From Candidatus Pacearchaeota archaeon (lineage in GTDB: Archaea; Nanobdellota; Nanobdellia; Pacearchaeales; UBA284), in the NCBI GenBank assembly GCA_026395795.1, contig JAPLYB010000040.1:5464-69463 (forward strand): a stretch of 64,000 nt of DNA, written 5' to 3'. Shown piece by piece: positions 45,358 to 63,928 of this stretch (positions are counted from its first letter, which is position 1; each line of letters begins with the position of its first letter). The notes below the pieces were generated by a model. The model was not told where the DNA came from and searched no databases. It saw only the letters and a list, made by a program, of their open reading frames with translations. The position numbers and the translations under genes are program-made.

Positions 45358-45677
45358 TCTCCCTTTTCTTTTTCTTTATACAAGAAAAACAATATAGGAA
45401 TAGCATCTTTGGATTTTTTCATTTTTCTTAATTCTTTTTCAAAATCTTTCTGATTCTCATGAAAAATCATCTTGTAAGAGAATTTTGATTTTTTATCTTC
45501 TAATTGAGGGAATTTATCTAAAAACTTTTTCTTAAGCCTTATTAAATTCCATGCGCCTTGATTAGTGGTATAAGAGACTATTCCTTTAACACAAACACTT
45601 GGAGTAACTGGTCTTAATACCTGTAAATCACTATCTTTAATTTCCTCATCTCTAAGGTCTTCTTTTACAAGAGTCAT
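45354..45677 (-). CDS. hypothetical protein (107 aa)
   Basis: ORF only, convergent with integrase. Confidence 0.3.
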   Translation of the reverse strand: MTLVKEDLRDEEIKDSDLQVLRPVTPSVCVKGIVSYTTNQGAWNLIRLKKKFLDKFPQLEDKKSKFSYKMIFHENQKDFEKELRKMKKSKDAIPILFFLYKEKEKGD

Positions 45678-46140
45678 TCTTTCACCACCTTGTAAGCAGA
45701 ATTTAGATAATTCTCACATAAAATGCAACACAGAACATAAACATAAAACCCCAAACATGAAATGAATGGGGTTGGCATGTTACATGCCCTCCTTAAAGTA
45801 CATAACAGGAATCTTAAATACAAGAAAGTTAATATAAAACAGAACTGACTCTAATTTCTCATTCTTCAAATTACTCTGAAGCTTGATCATGTTTTTCCTA
45901 TCAAACTCTTTAACGCCATCAAGGGTTTTTATCTACTCTAACATATATTTTCAAGTATATATAAAGCTTTCTAATAGTATCACTGCAAAATGACAAACGA
46001 TAGAAAAATTTAAAAGAGCTGAAGTCTTATTTTATGAATCGCCCATTTTTTAAAAACCAGAATATAAAGAGGTTCAACTATTGACCGAAGATTTACATAA
46101 TTTTTATAAAGCTCGACAACTATACTTCATTAATAGGAAA

Positions 46141-46890
46141 ATGAGTAAAAGAGGACAAGTTACTTTATTTGTAATTATCGCGATTATTATAGTTGCTTTA
46201 GCTTTGTCCTTCTTTTTTATATTTAAAGAAAAGATTGCTATCCCAAGAATAGATCCAAAACAAATCATAGAAACGAGAACAAGAATGGATTACATCTCTG
46301 AGAAGTCAACTTATGATATTCTTTACAAAATTGGTGAACAAGGGGGTTATTTAGATTTACCCCCACAGTCTTTAATAACTGAAAACAAACAAATAGCCTA
46401 TTCACTTTATGATAATAAGAATAATCTTCCTTCTTTGAGTTTTATTGAAAACGAAATTTCAGATTATACGGAAAAAACCATTGTTTTTTATTTAAATGAT
46501 TATTACAGAACAAATTCAACAAGTTCAAACATAAACTCAACAAATTTTGATTTTGATAATATAAGTGTCCAAACAATCATACAAAATGAGGAGATTATAA
46601 TTAAAACTAGTCTTCCAACAACAATTCAGGGCAAAAATGATGAAACTTTTCACATAGATTCTTATACAACGACAGTTCCATTTCAGTTTGGTTATGTTTA
46701 TTCTATTGCTAAAGATATTACAGAAAGAAGATTAAGACATCAAGCAATAGACGAATCTTATTTCAGAAACAAGGCTCTTTCAGTTGATGTAATTCCTATA
46801 GACTCAACAAAAATCATCTATAGTTTAAAGAAGTTCGATAATGCAAACAATAAAACCTTTGTCTTCAATGTAGCTTTTTTTGAACCATGA
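46141..46890 (+). CDS. type IV pilin-like protein (class III signal peptide, SKRG|QVTLF)
   Basis: MSKRGQVTLFVIIAIIIVALALSFFFIF; ATG at 46141 preferred over TTG at 46081; shares GGYLD block with the other two pilin-like proteins; stop overlaps the giant-gene start (ATGA). Confidence 0.5.
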   Translation: MSKRGQVTLFVIIAIIIVALALSFFFIFKEKIAIPRIDPKQIIETRTRMDYISEKSTYDILYKIGEQGGYLDLPPQSLITENKQIAYSLYDNKNNLPSLSFIENEISDYTEKTIVFYLNDYYRTNSTSSNINSTNFDFDNISVQTIIQNEEIIIKTSLPTTIQGKNDETFHIDSYTTTVPFQFGYVYSIAKDITERRLRHQAIDESYFRNKALSVDVIPIDSTKIIYSLKKFDNANNKTFVFNVAFFEP

Positions 46891-49800: not shown

Positions 49801-52577
49801 GCAATATCCCAACAAAAACAGTAAAATCTCCTTTAACAAATATTATTTATGATACTACAAAAACCTTTGAACAAAATAATTTTGACAAGCAAGCTAAAGA
49901 TGCGATTAAATTTGTTGTTTCTGTCGGAGTTATTGTCATAGCAGGAATAATTTCTGGAGGAACAGGCGCAGCAGTTGCTGGCTATTTAATAGAAGGACTT
50001 GGAGCAACTGCAACTTATGCAGCAACTTGTGCATTTGTAACAAATGTTGTTGTTTTTAGCGTTATAGCTTCTTATGGAAATGCTGCAATTCAATCTTCTT
50101 TTGAAAATGAAGATATCTTAACTGCATGGAACAATGAAATTGGCTGGAATCCTGAAAAAGGTCAAATTGGACAAAAATTTGTAAGAGATATTTCTTGGAA
50201 TTTCGTAATGTTTGGAGTCTTGCAAGGAACAAGCCAGTTTTTTAGAGAATGTAAATTCAATTATAATGCTTATAGCACATTAAAGACACAAGGATTGTCT
50301 GAAACAGAGATAAACTCTTTACTGAAAACTTCTGATGGAAAATTATTAGTCTCCAAATTTCTTGGCTCTGGAACAGGACAATTGCTTGCTCCAGTTTCTG
50401 AATTGGCTATATTTGATTTAATTGGGATAGGGCAACAAGGAACAGAAGTTGTTTTATCAAATGAGCTTTCTAAAGATGAAAAATTACAAGCAATAAAACA
50501 GTCTTTAGAACCATCAAGCATAGCAAAAATGTCTATTGATAATGCCAAATTTTTAATTGGACTTAAAACGGCAAATTCTGTTTTTTACAGTTTGACAAAA
50601 TCAATGCAATTAACAAATGAATTAAAGGCAAATTATCCACAAATGGAAGCAACAAGACAAGCACAATTAAAGGAGCTTGTCTCAACTGATTTACAAATCA
50701 GAGATAAGCTTTATGAATATGTCCAACAACCAACGAATGACAATCTAAGACAAAAATTAATCGACTTACAAGGGCAGGCACAACTTTTAAGGCAAAGTGC
50801 ATTAAGCCAACTCGGGAATTCTCCAGAAGATATACTGTTAAAATCAGAAATTTTGGATAAAGCGGGGAATGTTCCATTTACTTCTAGTAAAACATATCAG
50901 TTAGCTGAAAGATTAACCATTGATTCAAGAGTTGAAAGAACTTTCCTTTATGATGAAAAAAATCCAATAACAAGAGAAAATTTAGAAGAAATATTCCCCA
51001 ACGCTTTAATTCTAGAAGGCAAGGATAGAATCTTTACAATAATTAAAGAGGGAAACTCGTGGAATGTTGCAAAAACAACAGCAAGCGCTGAACAAATAAA
51101 TGCAGAAAAAAGTTCAGCAGAAACTTATAAGAAAACTGTTGTTGATGCGCCAGGAGTTGGAATGCTGGCGCTTCCTGCCTCAAATACCGTTCCTATCTCA
51201 GAAATTATGCAAAAATACTCCAATCAGGGAGTTGTTTTTATACACGCCTTAGACCCAATCGGTTTTAGCGGATATGAATCTTGGAGTTTAATAAGAAAAG
51301 GAGTTAGTTTGCAAGACAGGATGAATATTCTTTTAGGTTTAGAACCGTATATCGCAGCCTCAACAATTACACCAGGAGTTGGAGATAAAATCTGGAAAGG
51401 AATCGGCGTTATATTAAATGGAGGAGATATTACCTATGCATGTCCTGGCTCTGCCTGCTCAATATCAAAAGGAATATATGACCGAGTAACTTCTATCGGT
51501 GCACAAATTCCAAGAGGGCAATTAGATACAGACATAGATGTTGCAGTGAAGAGAGAGTATGAAAGCCCCACCACTCTTTCATCAGAATATTTGATAAAAG
51601 AGTATAATGAATTTGGGGTTAAAAATCCCAAAGTTGCGGCATTTTATATATCATTGGATTCTAAATTTAAGAATAGTATATCCACCTCTACGGCATTGAA
51701 GTATATACAAGAAATCTGTGCTAATCTGGGCTTGCCATTATATACTATCAAAGACGGAAGAATTTACGAAATAAAGAGCATAGAATATAAAACAAATAGC
51801 AATGGCGATTCAATTAGTTGGGAATTTATTCTTGGTAAGGAAATTTCAAATCAAGAAATTCTTCAAAGTGATTTTGAATTGTCTCCTCAAAATAAACAGA
51901 AGATGATGAGAGATTTATTTGCAATCTTTCCATTTTCAAATAATGAAATACAATTATACAGAATGTGGAGTATGGGCAGAGAAGCTTATATTGATATAAA
52001 TTCTTTAAAAAATCCTTCTGAATTTGAGGGGGAAAAGATTAATGTTAATGGAGAAGTAAACATTGCTTATATAATAAAAAATGGTCAGATTTTTAAGTCA
52101 GCTAGCACAACAACTTCTATGGGATTATGGGAGAATTATGGATTTCCTCCCAAAGCGATTTCTTTAAGATTAAATGGTGGATGCTTTACTTTTTTATTCA
52201 GTCCCAGAGAAATTCCACATCCCTCATCTAGACCTCCCCTTCTGGAAAGCAAGGATTTCTTAACTTCTATTCAGTCTCTTTCTAAATCAAAATTAGAAGA
52301 TGTAACGCGAGAAGATTTAGCTTATGCATTGTATGGATTCGGTGAAGAAGCAGCAAAACATAAGGATTTTGCAACCCAAAAAGTTGCATTTGAGATGGCA
52401 GAAAGAATGGGTTTTTCTGAAGCCAAATATGAAAATATAAGAGACTCTAGAGGATTTTTAAATAATGAATTTAAGATGTTCTTAGAAGACTTTAGTGATA
52501 AAGATGTAGGATTAGTAAAGGAAAAAATTGCAGCGGTATTTGGCTATATCCCTAGAGAATTTTATAAAAGTGAATAA
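46887..52577 (+). CDS. giant (1896 aa) low-Cys secreted protein with signal peptide and central Gly/Ala-rich TM block
   Basis: Signal peptide MKRKTNQQMIKSVISMFIIILIISTTFSSSVQIAKA; hydrophobic block AIKFVVSVGVIVIAGIISGGTGAAVAGYLIEGLGATATYAATCAFVTNVVVFSVIASYG; Asn/Ser/Lys-rich. Confidence 0.55.
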   Translation: MKRKTNQQMIKSVISMFIIILIISTTFSSSVQIAKADETLNPEQSTKLLELLHDKTSASAYFSNKANFNQDPFLSQAYFGNISTSTFSFWRDKNLVYNSQNNEISNSKFVINLNDFYQDSLFFYGDKSIELNGNKIYGNAYISKANDTFEETFILKTNFPNLDKILVTFKSNNATINITPDSLVFQGHVVVDVFLKTKRKISFESFSITKINKDLKIESRDSSLTLSKIFEPTQNNFEFYFPEHKFQGTSIIFFKNASIDSIDKAQLINSSYFDDNFYANYNSGFFSYTLNKQNLFFNSKPTTSGIFIDSNKITARGIFSIFIDKSRLNINSENGNSVLEYSWTKTNDNYNYEYSANGNLSIDTRDYSTRGDLKISEKTTDNIKNLDVSLQSSQSAVLKIKVYSDDSYFSEALDIPITLKKSTSSFLIDEKTLKQITELKTKNGIGLYYSKIKVTTGNNVLNIDPETSWFNTIQIDKSITGQTIINIIGKAIQNNPETEPEGKFNVLSPDQVSQEIGQVNDEIWIDGVQNAKLETFARALREAKWQQASSILSGFKSSGDETNLAIYSRIKENDPILVEQLESNQFSSTFFKNLANSIDYLKKSETAEQEYSNIQKQFSAKNLKYDVSPVELECKNKYLLYNRFQIISQSGENSEQSPVEYKASEIASSIGVSVYQLYQLNKDQLLGAIYDFDKNEIIDSKTNEPFLFNENITFLAPDTPLTLSAKEQFVESLRTQVYASRYYKTAYSGIKSLTTADEDARQQVDNLNNQIANDKKVYAFHKFLRDNQIDKKIHDKKYSEASQLLDKYPEKSFVSQYIKEKLQDKEIDFSQGDIYAMPIDEQTPGFGFTGMIVANTETFSRNPLIQTLMGVDSSVKSGLESGIIKNFREQLGLNKESLLDSDALELLASYNALEEYTNKYKQIEVGINDKTIIPSEALEEEIAIINQKIADYTKKSDNLWFNAYRKFMLSSSNIPTKTVKSPLTNIIYDTTKTFEQNNFDKQAKDAIKFVVSVGVIVIAGIISGGTGAAVAGYLIEGLGATATYAATCAFVTNVVVFSVIASYGNAAIQSSFENEDILTAWNNEIGWNPEKGQIGQKFVRDISWNFVMFGVLQGTSQFFRECKFNYNAYSTLKTQGLSETEINSLLKTSDGKLLVSKFLGSGTGQLLAPVSELAIFDLIGIGQQGTEVVLSNELSKDEKLQAIKQSLEPSSIAKMSIDNAKFLIGLKTANSVFYSLTKSMQLTNELKANYPQMEATRQAQLKELVSTDLQIRDKLYEYVQQPTNDNLRQKLIDLQGQAQLLRQSALSQLGNSPEDILLKSEILDKAGNVPFTSSKTYQLAERLTIDSRVERTFLYDEKNPITRENLEEIFPNALILEGKDRIFTIIKEGNSWNVAKTTASAEQINAEKSSAETYKKTVVDAPGVGMLALPASNTVPISEIMQKYSNQGVVFIHALDPIGFSGYESWSLIRKGVSLQDRMNILLGLEPYIAASTITPGVGDKIWKGIGVILNGGDITYACPGSACSISKGIYDRVTSIGAQIPRGQLDTDIDVAVKREYESPTTLSSEYLIKEYNEFGVKNPKVAAFYISLDSKFKNSISTSTALKYIQEICANLGLPLYTIKDGRIYEIKSIEYKTNSNGDSISWEFILGKEISNQEILQSDFELSPQNKQKMMRDLFAIFPFSNNEIQLYRMWSMGREAYIDINSLKNPSEFEGEKINVNGEVNIAYIIKNGQIFKSASTTTSMGLWENYGFPPKAISLRLNGGCFTFLFSPREIPHPSSRPPLLESKDFLTSIQSLSKSKLEDVTREDLAYALYGFGEEAAKHKDFATQKVAFEMAERMGFSEAKYENIRDSRGFLNNEFKMFLEDFSDKDVGLVKEKIAAVFGYIPREFYKSE

Positions 52578-54185: not shown

Positions 54186-54705
54186 TTTTCAAATTACCTC
54201 CTTTCAGCTTTTTGCTAAATTTATTTATCATACCCGACTTGAAACGAACTGATTTTTACATTTTTAGAAAAAATTATCTCTGGAAGAATGACGAGCTATA
54301 ATTTTTACGACCCTGCACCTTTCTGAAGCTTGCGAAAGAAAGACAAAGCAGATAAGCCCGAAGCCCGCGAAAATTAGGATTAAAGCGAAGCGTGTCTTGT
54401 GGGAACCCTCTGGGGCTAGACTTAATCTTTATTTTCGGGCTGGCGAGGAATAGCTTATTTGCTTTAAGGGGAAAAATCTAAAATGAGGGAGTTTAGGGTA
54501 TGTAAGATAAATAAATGAAAAAAGCGACAAAAAGGAGTGTAAGAAAATAGAAACTAGAAAATGCAATTAGTGAATAGAATCTATCTTTAAAGACAGAGTT
54601 CTGAATAAGGAGTGCAGTAGGTTGGATTTGGGCGTAGAAAAGATTAAAAAGAAGGAGTAACAGAGGCTGTATTGGTGCGTTAAAGGTTGGTAAAGGGGGT
54701 TAAAA

Positions 54706-55674
54706 ATGGAAAATAGTTTAAAAAAGAAAGTCTTAAAAAGTAGAAAATTGATAGTTATAATAGGAAAAGAGAGAAAAAAGATGGTTAAAAATATAAATCT
54801 TAATCTAAGATTTCTAAAAATTAACTATCTAAATAATATTTGTTATTATATCAAAGAAAAAAATCCTAAAGAAGTATTTACTTTAAAACTAATAAATTTT
54901 TTCAAAGAAAACTTTGATAGTAAGTCTATATTTAATTTTCAAGGGATGAACTATCGTTTTGGAGCAGTTGAAATTGGACAAAATCATATTTGTGGTAAAT
55001 TGTGGGAATTAAAAAAGAAACATGAAAAAGATTATCCTTGGACTGGAACGGATTATGAAATAAAACCACAGCTTGGAGCAGATTATCGTTTTGCTTGGTT
55101 TTATATAGACATTCAAACAAAACATTTAGTTTTACAGGATGAAAGAGATTTAACTCCAGATAAAGCTATTCAAGTTTTATGCTCATGGTTTGATGATTTT
55201 CATGGAATAAAAGAAGGGATAAATATTCAATACCTCAAAAGTAAAAAAGACTTTTTAAATGAATTGAAAGAAGCATATAAAATAGTTTATGCTAAATTTA
55301 TTTTGTATCCTAGTAATTTTGACTATGATGGTATAAGCAAACCATTAGATGATAGTCTTCATGCTTTAGAAATAAGTGAAATGAAACAAGAAATAAAAAG
55401 TAATAATGGGGTTAAATTGGAATTAGATAAGCCAAATGTTTTTTCTTCTTCGTTGGCTCAGGCATTAAGGGGTAATGGTAAAGACCCAGAAATAAAAACT
55501 CAAGATAAAAAAGGGAATATTACTATATTAACAAAAAAGATGAAGCATATAAAAAAGCAAATTCAAGGGTTTAAAGATATAAATGATATTAAGAAAATTA
55601 AACCACATCTTATTGCACAACTCAAAGAAGTTATTAAAGAAATGGATAATAAAAATGAAAGCAAAAGTGATTAA
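54706..55674 (+). CDS. hypothetical cytoplasmic protein (322 aa), first gene inside transposon
   Basis: ATG inside the left TIR; no recognisable motifs. Confidence 0.45.
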   Translation: MENSLKKKVLKSRKLIVIIGKERKKMVKNINLNLRFLKINYLNNICYYIKEKNPKEVFTLKLINFFKENFDSKSIFNFQGMNYRFGAVEIGQNHICGKLWELKKKHEKDYPWTGTDYEIKPQLGADYRFAWFYIDIQTKHLVLQDERDLTPDKAIQVLCSWFDDFHGIKEGINIQYLKSKKDFLNELKEAYKIVYAKFILYPSNFDYDGISKPLDDSLHALEISEMKQEIKSNNGVKLELDKPNVFSSSLAQALRGNGKDPEIKTQDKKGNITILTKKMKHIKKQIQGFKDINDIKKIKPHLIAQLKEVIKEMDNKNESKSD

Positions 55675-56140
55675 AGAATTTTTTAAAGCTAAGGCATTTA
55701 CTATTTCAGTGGTTATACTCTTACTTTATGCAATATTTTTTCATGGTAAAATAATAATTGATAAAGACAACTTAGAACACATATTTGGTTTTTTTCTTAC
55801 TCTATTTCCCTTAATAATAGCAATATTTACAATATTAATATCGTTTACAGATAATAAGTTTTTGAAATTCTTAAAAGATACAAAGGGAGCAGATAAAAAG
55901 ACGAGCATATATGATGAAATACTTGCTTATTTCATTATTAATACTATTTTAAGTTTGATAGCAGTTTTAATTGCTGGATTTGTCTTTTGTTTTAAACTAT
56001 CTGAATATGCTTTCTTGCAGTATATAATGATTTTTGTTTTTTCTTATACCATAATTTCATTTATTCAGTTAATCAGATTTATATTCTATTTTGCTAAGAA
56101 AAAAGCAGATTTTGTTAGTATAACTGAGAAGACATTTTGA
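55655..56140 (+). CDS. small 4-TM membrane protein, hypothetical (start trimmed to MKAKVIKEFF)
   Basis: Four hydrophobic helices; overlaps the stop of the upstream gene by 20 nt. Confidence 0.4.
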   Translation: MKAKVIKEFFKAKAFTISVVILLLYAIFFHGKIIIDKDNLEHIFGFFLTLFPLIIAIFTILISFTDNKFLKFLKDTKGADKKTSIYDEILAYFIINTILSLIAVLIAGFVFCFKLSEYAFLQYIMIFVFSYTIISFIQLIRFIFYFAKKKADFVSITEKTF

Positions 56141-57044
56141 TAAGTTCCAACCACTTATTATTCTCCTTCAACTTCAAATCAGTAGCCAATTCATAAGGTC
56201 TTTTATTGATAGCTTGATTTATCCTTATGAAATTATAATAAATCTCATAACCTTTCAAGATTAAATTAGCACTTCTCAAGCTTCCATGAAAACCACGAAA
56301 GACCTTAGTTCTCGCTCTTACATTATTATGCAACCTTTCAATAGGATAATTAAAAACATCTTCTTGTTTGCTTGTAACAACCCTATTATGAAAAACACTT
56401 TGTTTGCCCTCTTTCAAAGAATAACCAAAAACTTTCTTTACTGCTCCAATATAAGCATTTAAACCATCTGTTGTAACCATTTGAATTTTATTAGTTGTTC
56501 TTTCTTTTGCAGAGCTAATTATAGCAGTTATCTTCTTCTTACTTCTACATTTTGAATATTCAGAAGCTATCATAAATCTAGTAGTTGGGCAAACCCCATC
56601 TATAAAAAAGTTTTCTTCTGTTCCTTTAGATTTATGGCTTTTTCTTCGGTGATATTCAATTTCATCAAATTGTATTTCTTCTGAAATGTTTAGTCTTAAC
56701 TTATCTGTAAATTTACTTATAACCTTAGCATACTTCCAAACCCATCTTAGAATAGTTGAATGGTCTGCGTTATGTGGGAAGAACATGCCTAGATGTTCTT
56801 GAGTTCCACGAGTAGAAGCACCCCGATAAAATAAATCTACTGCCTGTGTTATCTTCTGTGGTGAGTTTCTCATTCTGAAAAAGCCATCATCAAGGGTAAA
56901 AGTTTTATTACAATCTTTACATTTATATCTCTGTATAAGCCCTCTATTTTCTGTTTTTCTTGTAGTCCATTTTATAGTATTCTCGGACTTGCAGAAGCGA
57001 CATATTATTTTATTCTTGGTATTTTGTGTTTCCATTTTATCCAT
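56115..57044 (-). CDS. IS6-family-like DDE transposase with N-terminal zinc ribbon
   Basis: CRFCKS...CKDC zinc ribbon; VTTDGLNAY (cf. IS26 TDKAPAY), NYPIERLHNNVRAR, FHGSLRSANLILKGYE blocks matching IS6/IS26 transposase architecture. Confidence 0.65.
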   Translation of the reverse strand: MDKMETQNTKNKIICRFCKSENTIKWTTRKTENRGLIQRYKCKDCNKTFTLDDGFFRMRNSPQKITQAVDLFYRGASTRGTQEHLGMFFPHNADHSTILRWVWKYAKVISKFTDKLRLNISEEIQFDEIEYHRRKSHKSKGTEENFFIDGVCPTTRFMIASEYSKCRSKKKITAIISSAKERTTNKIQMVTTDGLNAYIGAVKKVFGYSLKEGKQSVFHNRVVTSKQEDVFNYPIERLHNNVRARTKVFRGFHGSLRSANLILKGYEIYYNFIRINQAINKRPYELATDLKLKENNKWLELIKMSSQLY

Positions 57045-57148
57045 TTACCTTATAGGTATAACCTATTAAGTAATATTGACTATTTAAATCTTTCGCTTTG
57101 GGTATAACTTAATAGGTAAGTTTATAAACCATAAAAATATATATCTAT

Positions 57149-57316
57149 ATGGCAGAAATAAAAATTGAGGTAATGTCCTATAAGTGTGACAGATGTGGTC
57201 ATAAATGGATACCAAGAAATAAAAATAAACCGATTATATGCCCACTTTGTAAATCACCTTATTGGAATATACCTAGAAAAATCTTTAAAAAGGCGGAAAA
57301 TAAAAATGCAAAATAA
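57149..57316 (+). CDS. 55-aa zinc-ribbon protein (CxxC...CxxC), not in ORF track
   Basis: Translated by eye: MAEIKIEVMSYKCDRCGHKWIPRNKNKPIICPLCKSPYWNIPRKIFKKAENKNAK; promoter-like GTTTATAAACC ~25 nt upstream; overlaps MTase start by 11 nt. Confidence 0.45.
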   Translation: MAEIKIEVMSYKCDRCGHKWIPRNKNKPIICPLCKSPYWNIPRKIFKKAENKNAK

Positions 57317-58517
57317 AAATTATCTTGATATTATACTTGCAAAAAGCAAAAAACATCTAATATCTGAATTGGGTATAGCAGAAACTCAAAAGTTTATAGA
57401 AGAAGTTAAATCAAAAATAACATCTAAAGAAAATAAAGAGATTATTAAGCAATTTAATGAAATATATACTAAAAGAATTAAAGACAAATATCAAAAAGAT
57501 ACAAGCCCAGAATACGATAAAAGACTTTTTAGTTTTATAAAGAATAAAAATAACAAAATAAAAATAGTTTGGGGGGATTGTTATGAAAACCTAAAAAAAC
57601 TTCCTTCTGAAAGTGTGCATTTAATGGTTACTTCTCCGCCTTATTATAACGCAAGAGAATATTCGCAATACGGGGATTTAAATAAATATCTTGAAGATAT
57701 GAAAAAGATAATTACTGAGTGTTATAGGGTTTTGGACAATCATCATGTTTTTGTTTTTAATGTTGGCGATATTTTTGATAATGATAATTTAGTTAGTAAA
57801 TCGGTTTGGGGGGATAGAAGGTTGCCCCTTGGGGCTTACTTTATTAAGATATTTGAAGATGTGGGTTTTACTTTTGTTGATGACCTTATCTGGGATAAGG
57901 GAGAAGTAGAAAGTAAAAGGCATAAAAATGGGAATACTCCTTATCCATTTTATCAATATCCTATGAATTGCTATGAACATATTTTAATTTTTCATAAGCA
58001 TAGATTAGATACTACTCATTTTCCTTGCCCTGTTTGTGGCACATTACAAGTAAATGGAAATACCCAATCAGAAATAGGTTTAATGTCTTGGGAATGTAAA
58101 AACTTAGAATGTTTTGAGAGAAGTGCTAGTGACAGAGGAAAAAGATTTTCATTAAAAACTAATATGACTCAAAGTCCATCAATCAGAGAAGGTAATGAAG
58201 TGCCACATGATTTAATTAAAAAGTGGAGACGGGACATAACTAAATTTTCTCCTGTAATAAAAATAAATAGCAAAGGAGAAAACAAATTAGGGCATACAGC
58301 ACCATTCCCAGAAGACATACCCGAAATGGCAATTTGGTTTTATACTTATAAGGGGGATATAGTGCTTGACCCATTTGCAGGAAGTTTTACTACTTGTATA
58401 GTTGCTAATAAATTAAGCAGAATTGGGGTTGGAATGGAATTAAGAAAAGATTTGTTTGAGAAAGCTATAAAAGATAATTTAAATAAGAAGAAACAGGATT
58501 TTGAAGTTTTTAAATAA
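57306..58517 (+). CDS. DNA methyltransferase (N6-adenine/N4-cytosine, beta-class, ParB-MTase-like) with internal Zn-finger insertion
   Basis: MVTSPPYYNAREY (DPPY-type catalytic motif IV), C-terminal AdoMet-binding region LDPFAGSFTT (FxGxG-like), CPVCG...WECKNLEC insertion; start at MQNKNYLD rather than track start 57186. Confidence 0.8.
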   Translation: MQNKNYLDIILAKSKKHLISELGIAETQKFIEEVKSKITSKENKEIIKQFNEIYTKRIKDKYQKDTSPEYDKRLFSFIKNKNNKIKIVWGDCYENLKKLPSESVHLMVTSPPYYNAREYSQYGDLNKYLEDMKKIITECYRVLDNHHVFVFNVGDIFDNDNLVSKSVWGDRRLPLGAYFIKIFEDVGFTFVDDLIWDKGEVESKRHKNGNTPYPFYQYPMNCYEHILIFHKHRLDTTHFPCPVCGTLQVNGNTQSEIGLMSWECKNLECFERSASDRGKRFSLKTNMTQSPSIREGNEVPHDLIKKWRRDITKFSPVIKINSKGENKLGHTAPFPEDIPEMAIWFYTYKGDIVLDPFAGSFTTCIVANKLSRIGVGMELRKDLFEKAIKDNLNKKKQDFEVFK

Positions 58518-59288
58518 TTATTCCAATGCTTTAAAATTATTTTCAAATCTTTTCCATTTTCCATAATCTTTAGAACTAAAATGTTGTCTATCTTGGTCTT
58601 TTAAAAATGATGTTCCTTTCATAGAATTACCCATCGTTTTAATAAAGTCCTGAACAGACATAACTAAAAAATGTGGTTTGTCATCATCATCTATTAAGCA
58701 CCAAATAAAGAAATGGTCTTTAGAAATTATCATGTCTCTTGGTTTATGGTCTGTTGCGTAAGTATTTTTTGATTTTTCACCGATATATTCTACTCTTGAA
58801 GATTTTACTTGTATTGACCTGAATTTTGTTTTATACTCTTTAGAACCACAATTACAATAATAGTTAATCAATTTTACTTCCCCTCCACATTTATCACAAG
58901 TTGGAATAAGAGTAAAATTATCCACGCCTTTATTGTCACATTTTTTACAATTCGTGCTACTTCCTTCTGTTCTTGTTTTACATTTATTGCATATTTTTAT
59001 AGGTTTAATATTTCTTTTTTCAGTTTTAGAAAAGTCTTTATGACATTTATTACAAATTAAAGAGGGGGTCATAGCCCAGCTCTTACCACATTTTGCACAA
59101 GCGTATTTATGGGCTATAATATCAATATATTCATCATACATAGGACTATACACATTCCAACCATGTTTAGATAATTCAAAAGAAACTAAAAACTCCCCAT
59201 ATCTTGAAAAGTGTTTTACATTCAAATCAGAAGTCGTTTTATAATGTTCTTCTTGGGCTTCTTCTTGTTCTTCTATATCCTTTTCCAT
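58518..59288 (-). CDS. multi-zinc-ribbon protein with N-terminal PD-(D/E)xK-like region; candidate restriction endonuclease partner of the MTase
   Basis: At least five CxxC pairs (CAKCG, CNKCH, CNKCK, CKKCD, CDKCG); N-terminal YSPMYDEYIDIIAHK; convergent and abutting the MTase 3' end; ATG inside the right TIR. Confidence 0.4.
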   Translation of the reverse strand: MEKDIEEQEEAQEEHYKTTSDLNVKHFSRYGEFLVSFELSKHGWNVYSPMYDEYIDIIAHKYACAKCGKSWAMTPSLICNKCHKDFSKTEKRNIKPIKICNKCKTRTEGSSTNCKKCDNKGVDNFTLIPTCDKCGGEVKLINYYCNCGSKEYKTKFRSIQVKSSRVEYIGEKSKNTYATDHKPRDMIISKDHFFIWCLIDDDDKPHFLVMSVQDFIKTMGNSMKGTSFLKDQDRQHFSSKDYGKWKRFENNFKALE

Positions 59289-59391
59289 TGATAGATTAGG
59301 TAAGACCTATTTTTAATGCTTTCTACCAACCTTTAACGCACCAATACAAACAGAGGCGAACATTTATAAAATAGGAGGTTATCTCGGCTGT

Positions 59392-61114: not shown

Positions 61115-61744
61115 ATGAGCTATAAATTACTAATTAAGAAATTGATGATTGATAAAAAGAAGATTATCACGAGGGAAGAATTAAAAGAATATTGCAAAAA
61201 TTTTAAGATGTCTTATTCTTCTGTAATTGGGTATCTTCTCAGAAATAGGTATGCAGAAAGGATACTAAGAGGAATCTTTTATCTTAAAAGCATAGAAGAA
61301 AGAAAACTTAACAAATCAGACATGAGCTTCTACGAAGCTATCAAAGAAGCTCTAAGGATAAAGGGCGTTAAAAACTGGTATTTTGGCTTAGAAAGTGCTA
61401 TTAAATTAAACAACCTGACTCACGAATACTTTGCCATAGACTTTATTATTTCAGACAAAATAAAAAGAAAGAATACAATTGAGATTTTAGGGCATAAAGT
61501 CAAGTTTCTGACTATTAAAAAAGAGCTAATTAAGTTTGGCATTGAAAAGGGAAAAATCCCTTATTCAGATATTGAAAAAACAATTTTGGATATAGTTTAC
61601 TTGGGGATTTATCGGGGTTATTCGGAATCCACAATAAGAAACGACATAATTGATTATATTGATCTGTGCGACAAGGCAAAGCTTATTAATTATGCAAAAC
61701 ATTATCCTAAGACAATACTAAAGTTCATTCCAAAGACAAAATGA
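61115..61744 (+). CDS. AbiEi-like antitoxin/transcriptional regulator (putative)
   Basis: 209-aa ORF overlapping the start of the AbiEii-like NTase gene by 4 nt; typical AbiEi position. Confidence 0.4.
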   Translation: MSYKLLIKKLMIDKKKIITREELKEYCKNFKMSYSSVIGYLLRNRYAERILRGIFYLKSIEERKLNKSDMSFYEAIKEALRIKGVKNWYFGLESAIKLNNLTHEYFAIDFIISDKIKRKNTIEILGHKVKFLTIKKELIKFGIEKGKIPYSDIEKTILDIVYLGIYRGYSESTIRNDIIDYIDLCDKAKLINYAKHYPKTILKFIPKTK

Positions 61745-62679
61745 TAAGAAAAGAAGCTACTGGATTTATAAAAGAAAAGACAGGAATAAACAAAAGAGAA
61801 TTTATTGAAAAAGACCTTATTCTAAGCCAGCTTCTCTTTCATTTATCAAAAGAAAAATATTTCTTTGATAACTATGCTTTCAAAGGCGGAACTTGTCTAA
61901 TAAAATGTTATCTTGGATATTACAGATTCTCAGAAGACCTTGATTTTACTTACATAAATCAAAAAGAACTTGAAGGAAAAAGCATGAATCAAATGAGGAA
62001 GTTGGTTTCTGATAAAATAGACAAGGTTGCAGAGATACTTGAAAAAATCGCAAAACCCCTTGACTTGAGATTCAAAGCAGACAAACAGGATAAAGATCAC
62101 TTCCAATTTGGCGGAAGCAATGCATTTGTGACTTTTAAGCTCTGGTATAAATCAACCGAATCAGATAAAGAGAATTTCATTAAACTTCAAATCAATTACA
62201 TTGAAAAGCTTAATTATGCGATTAAAGAAATAAAAGCAAAAACTCTGCTATTGAAAGATTTTGAAAAGGAATTTTCTTCATTGTTTCCAGAAGAATTTGA
62301 ATTTTTAAAGCCCGCAAAAATCAAAACTTATGACATAAAAGAAGTTTTAATCGAAAAAATAAGGGCAATCCTGACAAGAAGGGGTGTTAAAGCAAGAGAT
62401 TTTATTGATGTCTATAAAATAACCAAATTAGAAAATCTTAAACTTGAAGATTTTAAGAAAGAAATAATTGACAAAATAAAAGCCATGCTAAAATTTGATA
62501 AATATCAAACTAACCTAGATAAAAAACAGGAAACTAACTTTTCAGCGGATATAGACAAAGAAAAAATAGTAGCTGAAGAAGAAAAGATTCTCCTTGTGCC
62601 TATCCCAGAAGATTTTGCAAAATTTTTGTCTGAATTTAAGGTTTTTCTGAATGAAATTATTTTGTCTTTAAAGAAATAA
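61741..62679 (+). CDS. AbiEii/DUF1814-family nucleotidyltransferase toxin
   Basis: FKGGTCLIKCY...RFSEDLDFTY matches the FKGGTAL...DIDF signature of AbiEii nucleotidyltransferases. Confidence 0.65.
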   Translation: MIRKEATGFIKEKTGINKREFIEKDLILSQLLFHLSKEKYFFDNYAFKGGTCLIKCYLGYYRFSEDLDFTYINQKELEGKSMNQMRKLVSDKIDKVAEILEKIAKPLDLRFKADKQDKDHFQFGGSNAFVTFKLWYKSTESDKENFIKLQINYIEKLNYAIKEIKAKTLLLKDFEKEFSSLFPEEFEFLKPAKIKTYDIKEVLIEKIRAILTRRGVKARDFIDVYKITKLENLKLEDFKKEIIDKIKAMLKFDKYQTNLDKKQETNFSADIDKEKIVAEEEKILLVPIPEDFAKFLSEFKVFLNEIILSLKK

Positions 62680-62702
62680 GAAGGAAGTGCGCCCAGTTTT
62701 CT

Positions 62703-62766
62703 TTAACTTTACTTAAAGTTACTTTAACTTACTTTAACTTACTTAAGGAGATTTAAGTAAACCCCA
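62703..62766. repeat. ~64-bp direct repeat copy B (same core, one extra ttaacttact unit) downstream of AbiE-like operon
   Basis: See copy A; internal short tandem actttaaCtt units. Confidence 0.8.
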
Positions 62767-62842
62767 AATATGACATAAATAATTAGTCTTTTTGGCAAGA
62801 AATAAGTAACATTTTTTAGGAATATCATGTATCATTTAGTAA

Positions 62843-62994
62843 AATTTGACAAATTTACCAAATATCACTGTTTATAATTGTCAAATTTATGCATTTTTTG
62901 CCAAATAGAAATATTTAAATACTTGTATGTCTGTCATATTTTGTATTAATTTGACAAAATGACTTTTGTGAGTATTAAATAATTGTCAAAATTT
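62843..62994. promoter_or_regulatory. four TTTGACAAA sites arranged as two inverted pairs upstream of 62999 gene
   Basis: aatttgacaaattt (62843), aattgtcaaattt (62875), aatttgacaaaatg (62948), aattgtcaaaattt (62981); sites 2 and 4 are the reverse complement of 1 and 3. Confidence 0.35.
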
Positions 62995-62998
62995 CAAA

Positions 62999-63928
62999 AT
63001 GGCTAAAAAAGATTTAGAAAATATCAGAGAAAAATTAAAAGAAATGAAGTCTGAAGACTTGGCAAATGAAAGCTCTATTAAAATAATTAAGGACATAAAA
63101 AAAGAAATTGCAAGAATCCTTAAAGATGCAAGAAAGAAAGAAATAAGAGCTGAAAATAAGATTGGAAAGGAAATTCTTATTCATTTCAAGAAACCGTTTA
63201 CAAAAGAAGATGCCTTTCAGAGATTTATCCCAGAATATTCAAAAGAAGAAATTATTAAAGCACTAAGGAAACTTATACGTGAGAAAAGTTTAGAACTAAT
63301 TAGAAAAGACCTTTATTCAGCACAGATTAGAAATTCTGAGCCCATAATTAGGCTATCCCCCGAAATGGAGAATGTGAGAAAAACACTTAATGATAATGGA
63401 ATCAGTTTTCTCATTACTGGTTTAGACGTGCTTCAAGAATATGTAAATCTTATCCCAAAAAGAATGCTTCATCTAGTCTATGTTGCAGATGGTTCTGGTG
63501 ATTTTGTTAAGAATTTAATTGTAAAAAAGACTGGAAAGATGTGCATTATTAATCCCTCAAGGAAAGAAATAAGAGATATGTTCTCTCATTACGCTGAAGA
63601 TATTATTATAGTCCGGGAAGTTGGAGAAAGTGCGATAGAGTATAATAATAAAGGGATTGCAATGATTGAAAAGGCAATTGTTGATTTATACTTTGAAACA
63701 ACCAGAAAGAGAATTCCCTTTGAAGTCTCGGAACTAACAAGTATTTTAAAGAATACCTTACTTAGATTAAAGATAGATTATAGAAGGTTACTAAGAGCCG
63801 CATCAAGAAGAAACCTGCAATCAGAGTTTATTAGGATTTTTGAGGCTTTAGGGCTTCATATTCCCTATGAAAAAATTAAAGAATCTGCAAACGACCAAGC
63901 AGAAAAAGTAATTAGGATGCTAAAATAA
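62999..63928 (+). CDS. hypothetical protein (309 aa)
   Basis: ORF, Lys/Glu-rich helical; no recognised motifs. Confidence 0.4.
   Translation: MAKKDLENIREKLKEMKSEDLANESSIKIIKDIKKEIARILKDARKKEIRAENKIGKEILIHFKKPFTKEDAFQRFIPEYSKEEIIKALRKLIREKSLELIRKDLYSAQIRNSEPIIRLSPEMENVRKTLNDNGISFLITGLDVLQEYVNLIPKRMLHLVYVADGSGDFVKNLIVKKTGKMCIINPSRKEIRDMFSHYAEDIIIVREVGESAIEYNNKGIAMIEKAIVDLYFETTRKRIPFEVSELTSILKNTLLRLKIDYRRLLRAASRRNLQSEFIRIFEALGLHIPYEKIKESANDQAEKVIRMLK

What the first reader, a model, noticed from the sequence alone, without database searches (positions are those of the whole stretch)
57149..59288. Transposon-borne Zn-ribbon / DNA methyltransferase / multi-Zn-finger module (candidate mobile R-M or orphan MTase system)
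A 55-aa CxxC...CxxC ribbon ORF (not in the ORF track) overlaps the MTase start by 11 nt. The MTase has an SPPY catalytic motif and an internal CPVCG...C..C insertion. Abutting convergently is a 256-aa protein with at least five CxxC pairs and an N-terminal D...E.K-like stretch. Small Zn-ribbon controller-like proteins ahead of an MTase, and a heavily Zn-decorated putative nuclease, are not a standard type II layout. Being inside a transposon suggests a mobile defence or addiction cassette.
Basis: partly seen in the sequence, partly recalled or inferred. Interest (0 to 1): 0.6.

Follow-up and report, generated by a model that had tools for sequence, protein, structure and literature searches.

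The report
Transposon-carried restriction–modification cassette in an archaeon
This is most likely a complete DNA-cutting and DNA-protecting (restriction–modification) gene pair on a 4.7-kb jumping element in a tiny DPANN archaeon; its cutting enzyme has three zinc-binding modules inserted into a common nuclease core, and the small zinc protein in front of it belongs to the transposon rather than to the restriction system.

Summary
In detail: all three ORFs, the 11-nt overlap, the SPPY motif, the internal Cys4 insert and the Cys-rich convergent ORF are present.

- **Transposon.** The genes lie in a 4,681-bp element (54668-59348). It has 40-nt inverted ends, whose outer 25 nt are identical, and a 9-bp target duplication.
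- **R-M pair.** The methylase and the 256-aa protein are adjacent in 28 of 31 loci from bacteria and archaea, in two orientations. They are 55-94% identical, with dN/dS about 0.08-0.09. I read them as a horizontally spreading Type II-like restriction–modification pair.
- **Methylase.** It is a beta-class N4/N6 enzyme, probably N4-cytosine specific. An invariant Cys4 ribbon sits in its target-recognition region.
- **Nuclease.** The 256-aa protein has a PD-(D/E)xK-type core (E38, D56, Q160-x-K162). Three Cys4 ribbons are inserted between the D and QxK strands. Relatives of 136-157 aa lack the insert.
- **Zinc ribbon.** The 55-aa protein is not part of the R-M core, and bacterial copies lack it. 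It belongs to a family of more than 550 loci, and about half of the sampled loci with enough upstream sequence have a divergent transposase next to it. It sits inside cargo transposons carrying R-M, toxin–antitoxin or unknown genes.

No function was tested. Nuclease fold matches are sub-threshold.

The parts
54659..54667 (.). Left copy of the 9-bp target-site duplication AACAGAGGC
   Evidence: Read directly. Recovered by an unbiased TIR+TSD scan.
54668..54707 (+). Left terminal inverted repeat (TGTATTGGTGCGTTAAAGGTTGGTA...); its inner end overlaps the ATG of the first cargo gene
   Evidence: pair I1: 40 nt, 88% complementary; the outer 25 nt are identical at both ends, with 0 expected by chance. 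L045 has a related TIR...CCTTAAAGGTTGGTA, also with a 9-bp TSD.
54706..55674 (+). Cargo gene 1: 322-aa DUF4747-like protein, function unknown
   Evidence: Pfam PF15931 at E=1.1e-5, just below the gathering score. No PADLOC or PHROG hit.
55583..56140 (+). Cargo gene 2: 185-aa predicted membrane protein; the listed ORF (first in-frame start codon) overlaps cargo gene 1
   Evidence: weak DUF3611 and ABC2_membrane hits; hydrophobic sequence.
56115..57044 (-). DDE transposase, 309 aa, with an N-terminal Zn ribbon; distantly IS6-like
   Evidence: NCBIfam IS6 at E=4.9e-18 (65.6 bits, cut-off 125). The IS1/IS1595 Zn domain is above its cut-off. Pfam DDE_Tnp_IS240 at E=1.4e-4. It is 45-60% identical to the transposases divergent from the Zn-ribbon gene in L044, L090, L040, L103, L080 and L069; the L045 transposase looks closely similar by eye but no identity was computed.
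57045..57148 (.). Divergent transposase / Zn-ribbon control region. It has the TATA-like box TTTATAAA (57122-57129) about 20 nt before the Zn-ribbon ATG, the TATA-like CTATTTAAA (about 57082-57090) facing the transposase, and repeated (T)AGGTA(A/T) boxes at 57053-57058 and 57113-57120 (a similar box lies inverted at about 57063-57068)
   Evidence: Sequence. Alignment of 8 related intergenic regions. AGGTAA, TAGGTA and GGTATA are about 10-fold enriched in 28 such regions. The promoter and operator roles are inferred.
57149..57316 (+). 55-aa Zn-ribbon protein (CxRCxHxWxPR...PxxCPxCKSPYW plus a basic tail); first gene of the Zn-ribbon/methylase operon
   Evidence: at least 552 related loci. AF2 gives a rubredoxin-like knuckle at pLDDT 72, and Foldseek finds only generic Zn ribbons. 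Context.
57306..58517 (+). Beta-class amino-methyltransferase, 403 aa (motif IV SPPY, then a Cys4-ribbon TRD, then motif I DPFAGSFTT); probably N4-cytosine specific
   Evidence: PF01555 at E=1.8e-35. Nearest solved relatives are TTHA0409, N4-cytosine MTases and M.PvuII. PADLOC MTase_II at E=3.9e-92. The four Cys are invariant.
58518..59288 (-). 256-aa putative restriction endonuclease: a PD-(D/E)xK-type core (E38, D56, Q160-x-K162) with three Cys4 ribbons (residues ~63-150) inserted in the D-to-QxK hairpin
   Evidence: invariant residues. (linkage to the methylase). (AF2, pLDDT 82). (top Foldseek hits are PD-(D/E)xK enzymes, none significant). (insert-less relatives; DUF4365 at 2.8e-6; PDDEXK_5 at 0.002-0.008).
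59289..59308 (.). Short region upstream of the nuclease gene, containing one more TAGGTAAG box (59297-59304)
   Evidence: 3 copies in 64 kb, of which 2 lie at the Zn-ribbon and nuclease starts. The window-wide count alone is not significant. The regulatory role is inferred.
59309..59348 (-). Right terminal inverted repeat
59349..59357 (.). Right copy of the 9-bp target-site duplication AACAGAGGC

Best explanation
The region is the right-hand cargo of a 4.68-kb, single-transposase DNA transposon in a Candidatus Pacearchaeota (DPANN) genome. The cargo is a Type II-like restriction–modification pair.

**The R-M pair (inferred from family and linkage).**
- The methylase is a beta-class enzyme with a Cys4 ribbon in its target-recognition region. 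It marks a specific site, most likely as N4-methylcytosine.
- The 256-aa enzyme cuts unmarked DNA. Its Mg-dependent PD-(D/E)xK-type centre would use E38, D56, Q160 and K162.
- Three Cys4 ribbons are inserted in the hairpin between the D and QxK strands. They most likely form the DNA-recognition and/or dimerisation module.
- Loss of the element would leave the stable nuclease without methylation, so the pair would stabilise the transposon (addiction) and also restrict incoming DNA.

**The Zn-ribbon protein (inferred from context).**
- It is a backbone gene of this transposon type. It is transcribed divergently from the transposase, probably from a leaderless archaeal promoter, and is translationally coupled to the first cargo gene.
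- I think it most likely (about 0.5) acts as a small DNA-binding regulator of the divergent transposase/cargo promoters, acting on the repeated (T)AGGTA(A/T) boxes. One such box also precedes the nuclease gene, so here it may secondarily time methylase against nuclease expression.

**Shown versus inferred.** Gene structure, conservation, linkage, transposon ends and fold class are shown. Enzymatic activities, the target site, Zn binding and the Zn-ribbon role are inferred.
For: **Transposon.**
- 40-nt TIRs with the outer 25 nt identical, plus a 9-bp TSD.
- The same scan finds sister elements with TSDs. L045 has a related TIR, a related transposase, a Zn-ribbon gene and a different SPPY methylase with a convergent 234-aa ORF. 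L075 has an 8-bp TSD, a Zn-ribbon gene, a methylase 67% identical to the window's and a 280-aa nuclease 34% identical with the same E..D..[Zn]..QVK layout. L056 and L059 are further examples.

**R-M pair.**
- The methylase and nuclease are adjacent in 28 of 31 genome loci, spanning Pacearchaeota, Altiarchaeum, Methanosarcinales, CPR, WOR-3, Cloacimonadota, Bacteroidota, Nitrospirae and Deltaproteobacteria. Twenty-one are co-directional M-to-R and 7 are convergent. The other 3 are fragments at contig ends.
- Identity is 55-94% across domains, with dN/dS of 0.08-0.09.
- Window and L001 share 88% nucleotide identity over only R, M and the 3' end of the Zn-ribbon gene, next to a different transposase.

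**Methylase.**

**Nuclease.**
- Invariant E38, D56, QVK160-162 and 12 Cys; AF2 pLDDT 82.
- Foldseek top hits are DpnI, the SPARDA nuclease domain, I-Ssp6803I, PvuII and NhoI.
- The core with the insert excised hits PDDEXK_5.
- Relatives of 136-157 aa lack the insert and align E/D/QVK in register. They hit DUF4365 (2.8e-6), PDDEXK_5, Mrr_cat, Mrr_cat_2 and UPF0102.

**Zn ribbon.**
- The family has at least 552 loci.
- 19 of 39 loci have a divergent transposase, of two DDE types, 43-209 bp away.
- Downstream genes include methylases of at least 4 families, often with 4-nt overlaps.
- Some family members are fused to an extra ~60-aa C-terminal domain that I read by eye as winged-helix-like (Pfam found nothing for it).
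- The motif is enriched in the control regions.
Against: **General limits.**
- No activity, methylation motif or Zn content was measured.
- I could not query REBASE, so the pair may already be listed there as a putative system.

**Nuclease.**
- All matches to known nuclease families or structures are below curated thresholds (best direct Foldseek E=0.057; PDDEXK_5 E=0.0076 on an artificial insert-excised construct).
- The link to the nuclease superfamily is therefore transitive, through insert-less relatives.
- No PADLOC restriction-enzyme model matches.

**Zn ribbon.**
- The regulator role rests on context only, and its fold is a generic Zn knuckle.
- The 80 loci analysed are those most similar to the window's protein, so the transposase association may be inflated.
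- Some family members sit in unrelated contexts, such as between type IV pilus ATPase and platform genes.
- The AGGTA(A/T) boxes partly abut TATA boxes and could simply be promoter (BRE-like) elements. The intergenic sequences are related, so the enrichment statistics are not independent.
Confidence: 0.8

Rival explanations
1. The 55-aa Zn ribbon is a dedicated controller of this R-M system, acting as a functional analogue of helix-turn-helix C proteins. It would delay nuclease expression until the methylase has protected the new host.
For: - It overlaps the methylase start by 11 nt.
- Relatives sit directly upstream of methylases of at least four unrelated families, often with 4-nt overlaps and a convergent unknown ORF behind them.
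- A TAGGTAAG box occurs both at its own promoter and just upstream of the nuclease ATG.
Against: - It is absent from all 21 co-directional copies (nearly all bacterial) and from most other copies of the same R-M pair.
- Only 13 of 52 family members have a methylase downstream, whereas 19 of 39 have a divergent transposase.
- It is present in TSD-bounded transposons whose cargo is a RelE/ParE-type toxin–antitoxin pair or unknown genes.
- Classical C genes usually precede the R gene, not the M gene (own knowledge).
Confidence: 0.25
2. The Zn ribbon is a transposition accessory protein. It would act as a DNA-binding cofactor or inhibitor working with the transposase at the ends, with no role in cargo expression.
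For: - It is consistently divergent from, and 43-209 bp away from, transposases of two DDE types that share an N-terminal SWIM/Zn domain.
- It lies inside the TIRs in five TSD-bounded elements.
- GGTAA-like sequence is also present in the TIRs of the window and L045.
Against: - L051 keeps the Zn-ribbon, methylase and nuclease genes behind a TIR-like sequence without any transposase.
- Family members also occur with no transposase nearby.
- Its translational coupling is to cargo genes, not to the transposase.
Confidence: 0.2
3. The 256-aa protein is not the cognate restriction enzyme. It could be a methyl-directed (Type IV), homing or repair nuclease, or a Zn-finger DNA-binding protein. The methylase would then be an orphan.
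For: - The nearest families include homing (I-Ssp6803I/PDDEXK_5), methyl-dependent (DpnI, Mrr-type D...QxK) and effector (DUF4365) nucleases.
- No restriction-enzyme model in PADLOC matches.
Against: - The protein sits next to one particular methylase family in 28 of 31 loci, in two orientations and across both domains, with the two genes showing similar identity levels.
- Both genes are under strong purifying selection.
- A methyl-directed enzyme paired with a methylase of matching specificity would be lethal to the host.
- There is no intron or intein context, and the protein is absent from viral and plasmid collections.
- Catalytic-type residues are invariant.
Confidence: 0.07

Closest known systems
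Type IIP R-M systems with a beta-class N4-cytosine methylase and a PD-(D/E)xK nuclease, e.g. PvuII
   Same: - A two-gene M+R unit, convergent or co-directional.
- A methylase with motif IV S-P-P-aromatic before motif I. M.PvuII is among the nearest solved relatives.
- PvuII nuclease is among the Foldseek hits.
   Different: - No helix-turn-helix C gene.
- The methylase has a Cys4 ribbon in its TRD and an 85-aa N-terminal extension.
- The nuclease has a 90-aa triple Zn-ribbon insert and QxK instead of (D/E)xK.
- The target site is unknown.
Cys4-containing restriction enzymes of the PD-(D/E)xK class: DpnI, NotI (Fe-Cys4) and BslI (Zn(Cys)4 motifs)
   Same: - Structural Cys4 metal sites combined with a PD-(D/E)xK-type centre (PMC4081073).
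- DpnI is the top Foldseek hit.
- From memory, not tested: BslI has a 912-aa beta-class N4-cytosine methylase. The best PADLOC methylase model (E=3.9e-92) is 912 positions long.
   Different: - Three tandem Cys4 ribbons are inserted inside the catalytic hairpin of a single 256-aa chain.
- There is no detectable sequence similarity to any PADLOC restriction-enzyme model.
- BslI is a two-subunit enzyme and DpnI is methyl-dependent.
- Homology to BslI subunits could not be tested.
PDDEXK_5 (I-Ssp6803I-like), DUF4365 (the nuclease domain found in SPARDA systems) and Mrr-type D...QxK nucleases
   Same: - Core order: helix with E, strand with D, strand with QxK.
- Weak profile hits to all of these, for the excised core or for insert-less relatives.
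- Foldseek hits 2ost and 9qcc.
   Different: - All hits are below gathering thresholds, so this is a separate family.
- It has only 71 representatives at 50% clustering.
- The large Zn insert and the linkage to a methylase are particular to this family.
IS6-family insertion sequences and cargo-carrying 'tIS' elements (e.g. ISDsp3)
   Same: - A single DDE transposase with IS240/IS6 similarity and an N-terminal Zn finger.
- Short TIRs. The sister element L075 has GG tips and an 8-bp TSD, as in IS6 (PMC7986276).
   Different: - The window's transposase is below the family cut-offs.
- Its TIR starts with TG and the TSD is 9 bp (as in L045).
- The element carries five extra genes, whereas only one IS6 member with a passenger gene is listed in the review.
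- The divergent Zn-ribbon gene is not described there.
Controller (C) proteins of R-M systems, and the divergently transcribed TnpR regulator of Tn3-family transposons (own knowledge)
   Same: - A small protein encoded at a control region.
- It is positioned to regulate flanking genes: transposase on one side, cargo or methylase on the other.
   Different: - Its fold is a Zn ribbon, not a helix-turn-helix or a serine recombinase.
- No binding or regulation has been shown.

Membership tests
Type II restriction–modification system | A DNA methyltransferase and a separate nuclease encoded side by side and inherited together | tested here: met
   Adjacent in 28 of 31 loci across bacteria and archaea, in two orientations. 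R and M move together between different transposon backgrounds.
Type II restriction–modification system | The nuclease cleaves at or near a defined site, and cleavage is blocked by the cognate methylation | not testable with these tools
   Needs enzyme assays or methylome data.
Beta-class N6/N4 DNA methyltransferases (PF01555) | PF01555 match above the gathering score, with motif IV (S/D)PP(Y/F) preceding motif I FxGxG | tested here: met
   123 bits against a cut-off of 26.7. SPPY lies at residues 110-113 and DPFAGSFTT at 355-363.
N4-cytosine-specific subgroup of beta-class methyltransferases | Produces N4-methylcytosine; SPP(Y/F) rather than DPPY in motif IV is the usual sequence correlate (own knowledge) | tested here: inconclusive
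   The SPPY motif is present. The nearest solved relatives include N4C enzymes (8s9n, M.PvuII) but also N6A enzymes (M.MboIIA, CcrM). Chemistry was not measured.
PD-(D/E)xK nuclease superfamily | An alpha-beta-beta-beta core carrying E ... D ... (D/E/Q)xK in conserved order | tested here: met
   - E38, D56 and Q160-V-K162 are invariant.
- They align in register with insert-less relatives.
- The predicted order is helix 24-41, strands 45-47 and 57-64, the insert, then strand 152-169.
PD-(D/E)xK nuclease superfamily | A significant sequence or structure match to a recognised member family | tested here: inconclusive
   - The best direct Foldseek E-value is 0.057, to DpnI.
- PDDEXK_5 scores E=0.0076 on the excised core.
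- An insert-less relative reaches DUF4365 at E=2.8e-6.
- Apart from that DUF4365 hit, whose bit score was not shown, the matches are below Pfam gathering scores.
IS6 family transposon | Transposase matching the IS6 / DDE_Tnp_IS240 models above their cut-offs | tested here: not met
   NCBIfam IS6 gives 65.6 bits against 125. Pfam IS240 gives 22.4 bits against 27. The relationship is real but distant.
IS6 family transposon | GG at the tips of the TIRs and an 8-bp target duplication (PMC7986276) | tested here: not met
   The window TIR starts TGTATT and the TSD is 9 bp. The sister element L075 meets both criteria: GGTTGTGTTGCG and 8 bp.
R-M controller (C) proteins | A small helix-turn-helix (Xre-type) protein, usually upstream of the R gene, that binds a C-box | tested here: not met
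   The 55-aa protein is a Cys4 Zn ribbon with no HTH match. It precedes the M gene. Binding could not be tested.

The most novel reading that the evidence does not exclude
The 55-aa protein founds a previously undescribed class of Zn-ribbon regulators that form the conserved backbone, together with a divergent DDE transposase, of cargo-carrying transposons in DPANN and other archaea. By binding repeated (T)AGGTA(A/T) boxes it would coordinate transposase, methylase and nuclease expression. It would thus combine the roles played in bacteria by R-M C proteins and by transposon regulators such as TnpR. This would let these elements shuttle addiction modules (R-M, toxin–antitoxin) between hosts.

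In parallel, the 256-aa enzyme would be the first restriction enzyme that reads its site with a triple Zn-ribbon array inserted into the catalytic hairpin.
Probability: 0.3. Interest if true: 0.65.

Novelty: new variant of a known kind. Interest (0 to 1): 0.5.

Why it matters
**A new restriction-enzyme family.** If the activities are as inferred, this is an uncharacterised restriction enzyme and methylase family spread across many uncultivated bacterial and archaeal phyla. Its nuclease is compact, and DNA recognition is probably delegated to an inserted array of three Zn ribbons. That design is of interest for enzyme discovery and engineering.

**Cargo transposons in archaea.** The work documents single-transposase, TIR/TSD-bounded transposons carrying passenger genes in archaea. 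A 2019 survey of thaumarchaeal mobile elements stated that this class had not been detected in archaea (PMC6563490). The IS6 review lists only one IS6-family member with a passenger gene (PMC7986276).

**A context for an anonymous gene family.** It gives a genomic context, and a testable role, to an abundant Zn-ribbon micro-protein family of more than 550 loci.

**What is not new.** Mobile R-M systems, Cys4 motifs in restriction enzymes and small transposon or R-M regulators are all established ideas.

Tried and rejected
- **Orphan methylase.** Rejected because of the 28-of-31 linkage.
- **Split methylase domain.** I checked whether the Zn ribbon is an N-terminal domain split off the methylase. 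None of 120 methylase homologues has an N-terminal CxxC...CxxC.
- **Viral or plasmid origin of the nuclease.** No match in IMG/VR, INPHARED phages or PLSDB plasmids.
- **RNA genes or riboswitches around the element.** Only one chance-level Rfam hit, and no tRNA.
- **Direct profile searches against PDB sequences.** Searches with the nuclease (A1), its excised core (A5) and the mixed core alignment (A8) returned only noise.
- **Fold search with the Zn-ribbon model.** It returned only generic rubredoxin, MCM and ribosomal Zn knuckles, which is uninformative.
- **L011 pair.** A 10-nt inverted repeat plus an 8-bp direct-repeat pair around the L011 R-M genes was judged to be AT-rich chance.
- **BslI papers.** I could not obtain them to test the BslI lead.
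- **TAGGTAAG box.** The window-wide count (3 against 1.5 expected) is not significant on its own. Only its positions, and the enrichment across related control regions, are suggestive.
- **The sigma-70 promoter scanner.** Not used, because the host is archaeal.


Full report
**1. What is in the sequence**

The ORF list and raw sequence confirm every element of the finding.
- A 55-aa ORF spans 57149-57316 (+) and carries CDRC...CPLC.
- A methylase ORF follows. Orthologues place its start at ATG 57306, giving 403 aa, rather than at the mechanical 443-aa GTG ORF. The overlap with the 55-aa ORF is therefore 11 nt.
- A 256-aa ORF on the opposite strand spans 58518-59288. Its stop codon directly abuts the methylase stop.
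- Pfam places the methylase in PF01555 (E=1.8e-35). It finds nothing above threshold for the other two proteins.
- The 256-aa protein is 100% identical to a 'hypothetical protein' of a Candidatus Pacearchaeota MAG. The window is therefore DPANN archaeal DNA, with about 30% G+C.

**2. The transposon is real**

- The longest inverted repeat in the neighbourhood pairs 54668-54707 with 59309-59348 (40 nt, 88% complementary).
- The outer 25 nt are identical and occur nowhere else in the window, with 0 matches expected by chance.
- Both ends are flanked by the direct repeat AACAGAGGC.
- A scan I wrote for 'inverted repeat plus 8- or 9-bp direct repeat' recovered this pair. It also recovered four sister elements among the fetched loci:
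  - L045 has a related TIR, ...CCTTAAAGGTTGGTA, and a 9-bp TSD.
  - L075 has the TIR GGTTGTGTTGCGTTAAAGGG and the 8-bp TSD GTTAGAGT.
  - L056 and L059 both have 9-bp TSDs.
- The window element is 4,681 bp. In order it carries a DUF4747-like gene, a membrane-protein gene, a 309-aa DDE transposase (-), the Zn-ribbon gene, the methylase and the 256-aa gene (-).
- The transposase is only distantly IS6-like. It scores 65.6 bits against the NCBIfam IS6 cut-off of 125, and 22.4 against 27 for Pfam IS240. The TG tips and 9-bp TSD also differ from the IS6 norm of GG tips and 8 bp (PMC7986276).
- I therefore do not file the element as an IS6 member.

**3. The methylase and the 256-aa protein are one unit**

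- A scan of one genome per species found 31 loci encoding a relative of the 256-aa protein.
- tblastn shows the methylase immediately adjacent in 28 of them. The other three are fragments at contig ends.
- The hosts span Pacearchaeota, Altiarchaeum, Methanosarcinales, several CPR phyla, WOR-3, Cloacimonadota, Bacteroidota, Nitrospirae, Calditrichaeota and Deltaproteobacteria.
- Both proteins are 55-94% identical to the window's copies across these hosts.
- Two layouts occur: co-directional M-to-R in 21 loci and convergent in 7.
- Against the closest relative, L001, dN/dS is 0.08 for R and 0.09 for M.
- Nucleotide similarity between the window and L001 (88% over 2,026 bp) covers exactly R, M and the 3' end of the Zn-ribbon gene. 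It ends next to a different transposase of 412 aa, 26% identical.
- This pattern indicates a self-contained, horizontally mobile R-M pair. It is not what an orphan methylase next to an unrelated gene would show.
- No relative was found in viral or plasmid collections.

**4. The methylase**

- Motif IV (TSPPYY, residues 109-114) precedes motif I (DPFAGSFTT, residues 355-363). This is the beta-class order.
- The region between them contains C241, C244, C264 and C269, which are invariant in 25 orthologues. The target-recognition region therefore contains a Cys4 ribbon.
- The nearest solved relatives are TTHA0409, two N4-cytosine methyltransferases and M.PvuII, followed by N6-adenine enzymes.
- SPP(Y/F) is the usual correlate of N4-cytosine specificity (own knowledge). 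I rate N4mC as likely but not shown.
- PADLOC's best model is a 912-position Type II methylase model (E=3.9e-92). From memory, M.BslI is 912 aa and is a beta-class N4C enzyme, and R.BslI contains Zn(Cys)4 motifs. I could not obtain the sequences or papers, so this remains an untested lead.

**5. The 256-aa protein is a PD-(D/E)xK-type nuclease with an inserted triple Zn ribbon**

- In 37 homologues the invariant residues include E38, D52, E53, D56, K61 and Q160-V-K162-S-S-R.
- Twelve cysteines are also invariant, arranged as three Cys4 units between residues 64 and 147.
- AlphaFold2 (pLDDT 82, pTM 0.67) predicts helix 24-41 and strands 45-47 and 57-64. A series of short hairpins follows, and then a long strand starting at residue 152.
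- Foldseek against the PDB gives no significant hit. Its top matches are nevertheless dominated by PD-(D/E)xK enzymes: DpnI, the SPARDA nuclease domain, I-Ssp6803I, PvuII and NhoI.
- When residues ~63-150 are replaced by a short linker, the only Pfam hit is PDDEXK_5 (E=0.0076).
- An exhaustive profile search of 1.8 billion representatives found only 71 relatives. Several are proteins of 136-157 aa that lack the insert. They align GE..., IDL... and IQVKSS in register, with about 10 residues where the window protein has about 90.
- These small relatives hit DUF4365 (best E=2.8e-6), PDDEXK_5, Mrr_cat, Mrr_cat_2 and UPF0102. All of these are PD-(D/E)xK families.
- D...QxK is the Mrr-type variant of the motif (own knowledge).
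The fold evidence is transitive and sub-threshold, however.
- Cys4 sites in PD-(D/E)xK restriction enzymes have precedents (DpnI, NotI, BslI; PMC4081073). A three-ribbon array inside the catalytic hairpin is, as far as I could check, a new variant.

**6. The Zn-ribbon ORF belongs to the transposon, not to the R-M pair**

Distribution relative to the R-M pair:
- Among the 31 R-M loci, the ORF is found upstream of the methylase only in the two Pacearchaeota loci, L001 and L002.
- No methylase homologue carries it as an N-terminal domain.

The family itself:
- The family motif is CxRCxHxWxPR...PxxCPxCKSPYW followed by a basic tail.
- It is large: 552 of the first 600 pattern matches in metagenome contigs were confirmed.

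Neighbours in the 80 nearest loci:
- The divergent upstream neighbour is most often a transposase. Counts among 46 scanned are DDE_Tnp_1 9, SWIM 9, IS240 8, rve 3, DUF772 2 and Mutator 2.
- 25 of the 46 fall in one BLAST-linked cluster. It comprises two DDE types that share an N-terminal SWIM/Zn domain.
- Among loci with at least 1 kb of upstream sequence, 19 of 39 have such a transposase. Spacing in the clustered loci is 43-209 bp.
- The co-directional downstream gene is a DNA methylase in 13 of 52 loci. The families are N6_N4, N6_Mtase and D12, plus a C5 methylase in L034. A 4-nt overlap is common.

Other cargo and variant contexts:
- In TSD-bounded elements the cargo can also be a RelE/ParE-type toxin–antitoxin pair (L059) or unknown genes (L056).
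- L051 has a TIR-like sequence directly upstream of the Zn-ribbon, methylase and nuclease genes, with no transposase. This may be a non-autonomous derivative.
- Six family members are fused to an extra ~60-aa C-terminal domain and sit upstream of DUF488 genes. I read that domain by eye as winged-helix-like, but Pfam found nothing for it.
- One member lies between pilus ATPase and platform genes.

Structure and caveat:
- The predicted structure is a generic Zn knuckle.
- The 80 loci are those nearest to the query, so the proportions above are biased towards related elements.

**7. Control region**

- The 104-bp region between the transposase and the Zn-ribbon gene has the TATA-like box TTTATAAA about 20 nt upstream of the Zn-ribbon ATG. 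This is compatible with a leaderless archaeal transcript.
- A second TATA-like box faces the transposase.
- The region also has repeated (T)AGGTA(A/T) boxes, one of them within a near-palindrome next to the transposase start.
- Across 28 such regions, AGGTAA, TAGGTA and GGTATA are about 10-fold over-represented. This is inflated by shared ancestry.
- One further TAGGTAAG lies between a TATA-like element and the nuclease ATG.
- These boxes are candidate operators. They could equally be promoter (BRE-like) elements.

**8. Mechanism proposed**

- The transposon inserts, leaving a 9-bp duplication.
- The Zn-ribbon/methylase operon and the inward-facing nuclease gene are then expressed.
- The methylase protects host sites, and the nuclease cuts unmodified DNA.
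- Loss of the element is penalised by post-segregational cutting.
- The Zn ribbon most likely acts as a small DNA-binding regulator of the divergent promoters (about 0.5). The alternatives are a dedicated C-protein analogue (0.25) and a transposition cofactor (0.2).
- All biochemical steps are inferred.

**9. Verdict**

- It is wrong, or at least unproven, about a Zn-ribbon 'controller' specific to R-M, and about the layout being non-standard.
- Novelty: a new variant of known kinds. These are an uncharacterised restriction-enzyme family with a triple Zn-ribbon insert, and archaeal cargo transposons with a conserved Zn-ribbon backbone gene.
- Interest is moderate.

Noticed in passing
window 54706-56140: The left half of the transposon carries two overlapping cargo genes of unknown function: a DUF4747-like protein of 322 aa and a 185-aa membrane protein. 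Neither matches a PADLOC or PHROG model. They may be a second defence or addiction module.
   Followed up: partly
window 61115-63928: About 1.8 kb to the right of the transposon lie an AbiEii toxin gene (PF08843, E=9e-26) preceded by an overlapping 209-aa gene that may be its AbiEi-type partner, and a DUF6577 gene. The element sits beside other addiction or defence genes.
   Followed up: partly
window 44083-52577: This stretch contains a weak phage-integrase-like gene (44083-45357), a 269-aa ORF and a 1,896-aa ORF with no Pfam match at all (46887-52577). It may be another integrated element.
   Followed up: no
L034/L035 2677-6221: The same design occurs with unrelated parts. A DDE_Tnp_1 transposase is divergent from a 72-aa Zn-ribbon gene, which overlaps a C5-cytosine methylase. 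A convergent 298-aa unknown ORF follows, and a phage-integrase gene lies alongside.
   Followed up: partly
L059 204-3336 and L056 2481-5995: These are TSD-bounded transposons with a SWIM plus DDE_Tnp_1 transposase and the Zn-ribbon gene. In L059 the cargo is a RelE/ParE-like toxin with an upstream partner and a 304-aa unknown. In L056 it is a HARE-HTH protein.
   Followed up: partly
L051 485-2523: A TIR-like sequence (CTGGTGCATTGAAAGTTGGTA) lies about 100 nt upstream of the Zn-ribbon gene; a nuclease copy 77% identical to the window's lies at 1831-2523, with a gap between that is the right size for the methylase (not confirmed). No transposase lies between the TIR-like sequence and the Zn-ribbon gene. 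This may be a non-autonomous derivative of the element.
   Followed up: partly
L041, L052, L064, L087, L088, L114 (e.g. L052 1815-2705): In these loci the Zn-ribbon domain is fused to an extra ~60-aa C-terminal domain, giving proteins of 106-117 aa. I read that domain by eye as winged-helix-like, but Pfam found nothing for it. Each is followed by a DUF488 gene.
   Followed up: partly
window 57045-57148 and 59297-59304; 28 related intergenic regions: (T)AGGTA(A/T) boxes are repeated and about 10-fold enriched between the transposase and Zn-ribbon genes. One copy lies just upstream of the nuclease ATG, and GGTAA-like sequence also occurs in the TIRs. These are candidate operators or promoter elements.
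   Followed up: partly
P0137, P0149, P0155, P0165, P0166, P0173, P0181: These are relatives of the nuclease, 136-157 aa long, that lack the triple Zn-ribbon insert. Their genomic contexts, and whether they too are linked to methylases, could not be looked up.
   Followed up: no
L036/L037 (P0122): A close Zn-ribbon homologue (68% identical) sits between an intein-containing type IV pilus/T2SS ATPase gene and a T2SSF platform gene. This context has no transposase or methylase.
   Followed up: no
P0201, P0256 (methylase orthologues): Two orthologues of the methylase are named 'restriction endonuclease' in NCBI records, which is probably a mis-annotation. One archaeal orthologue is auto-named 'Modification methylase MjaV'.
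   Followed up: no
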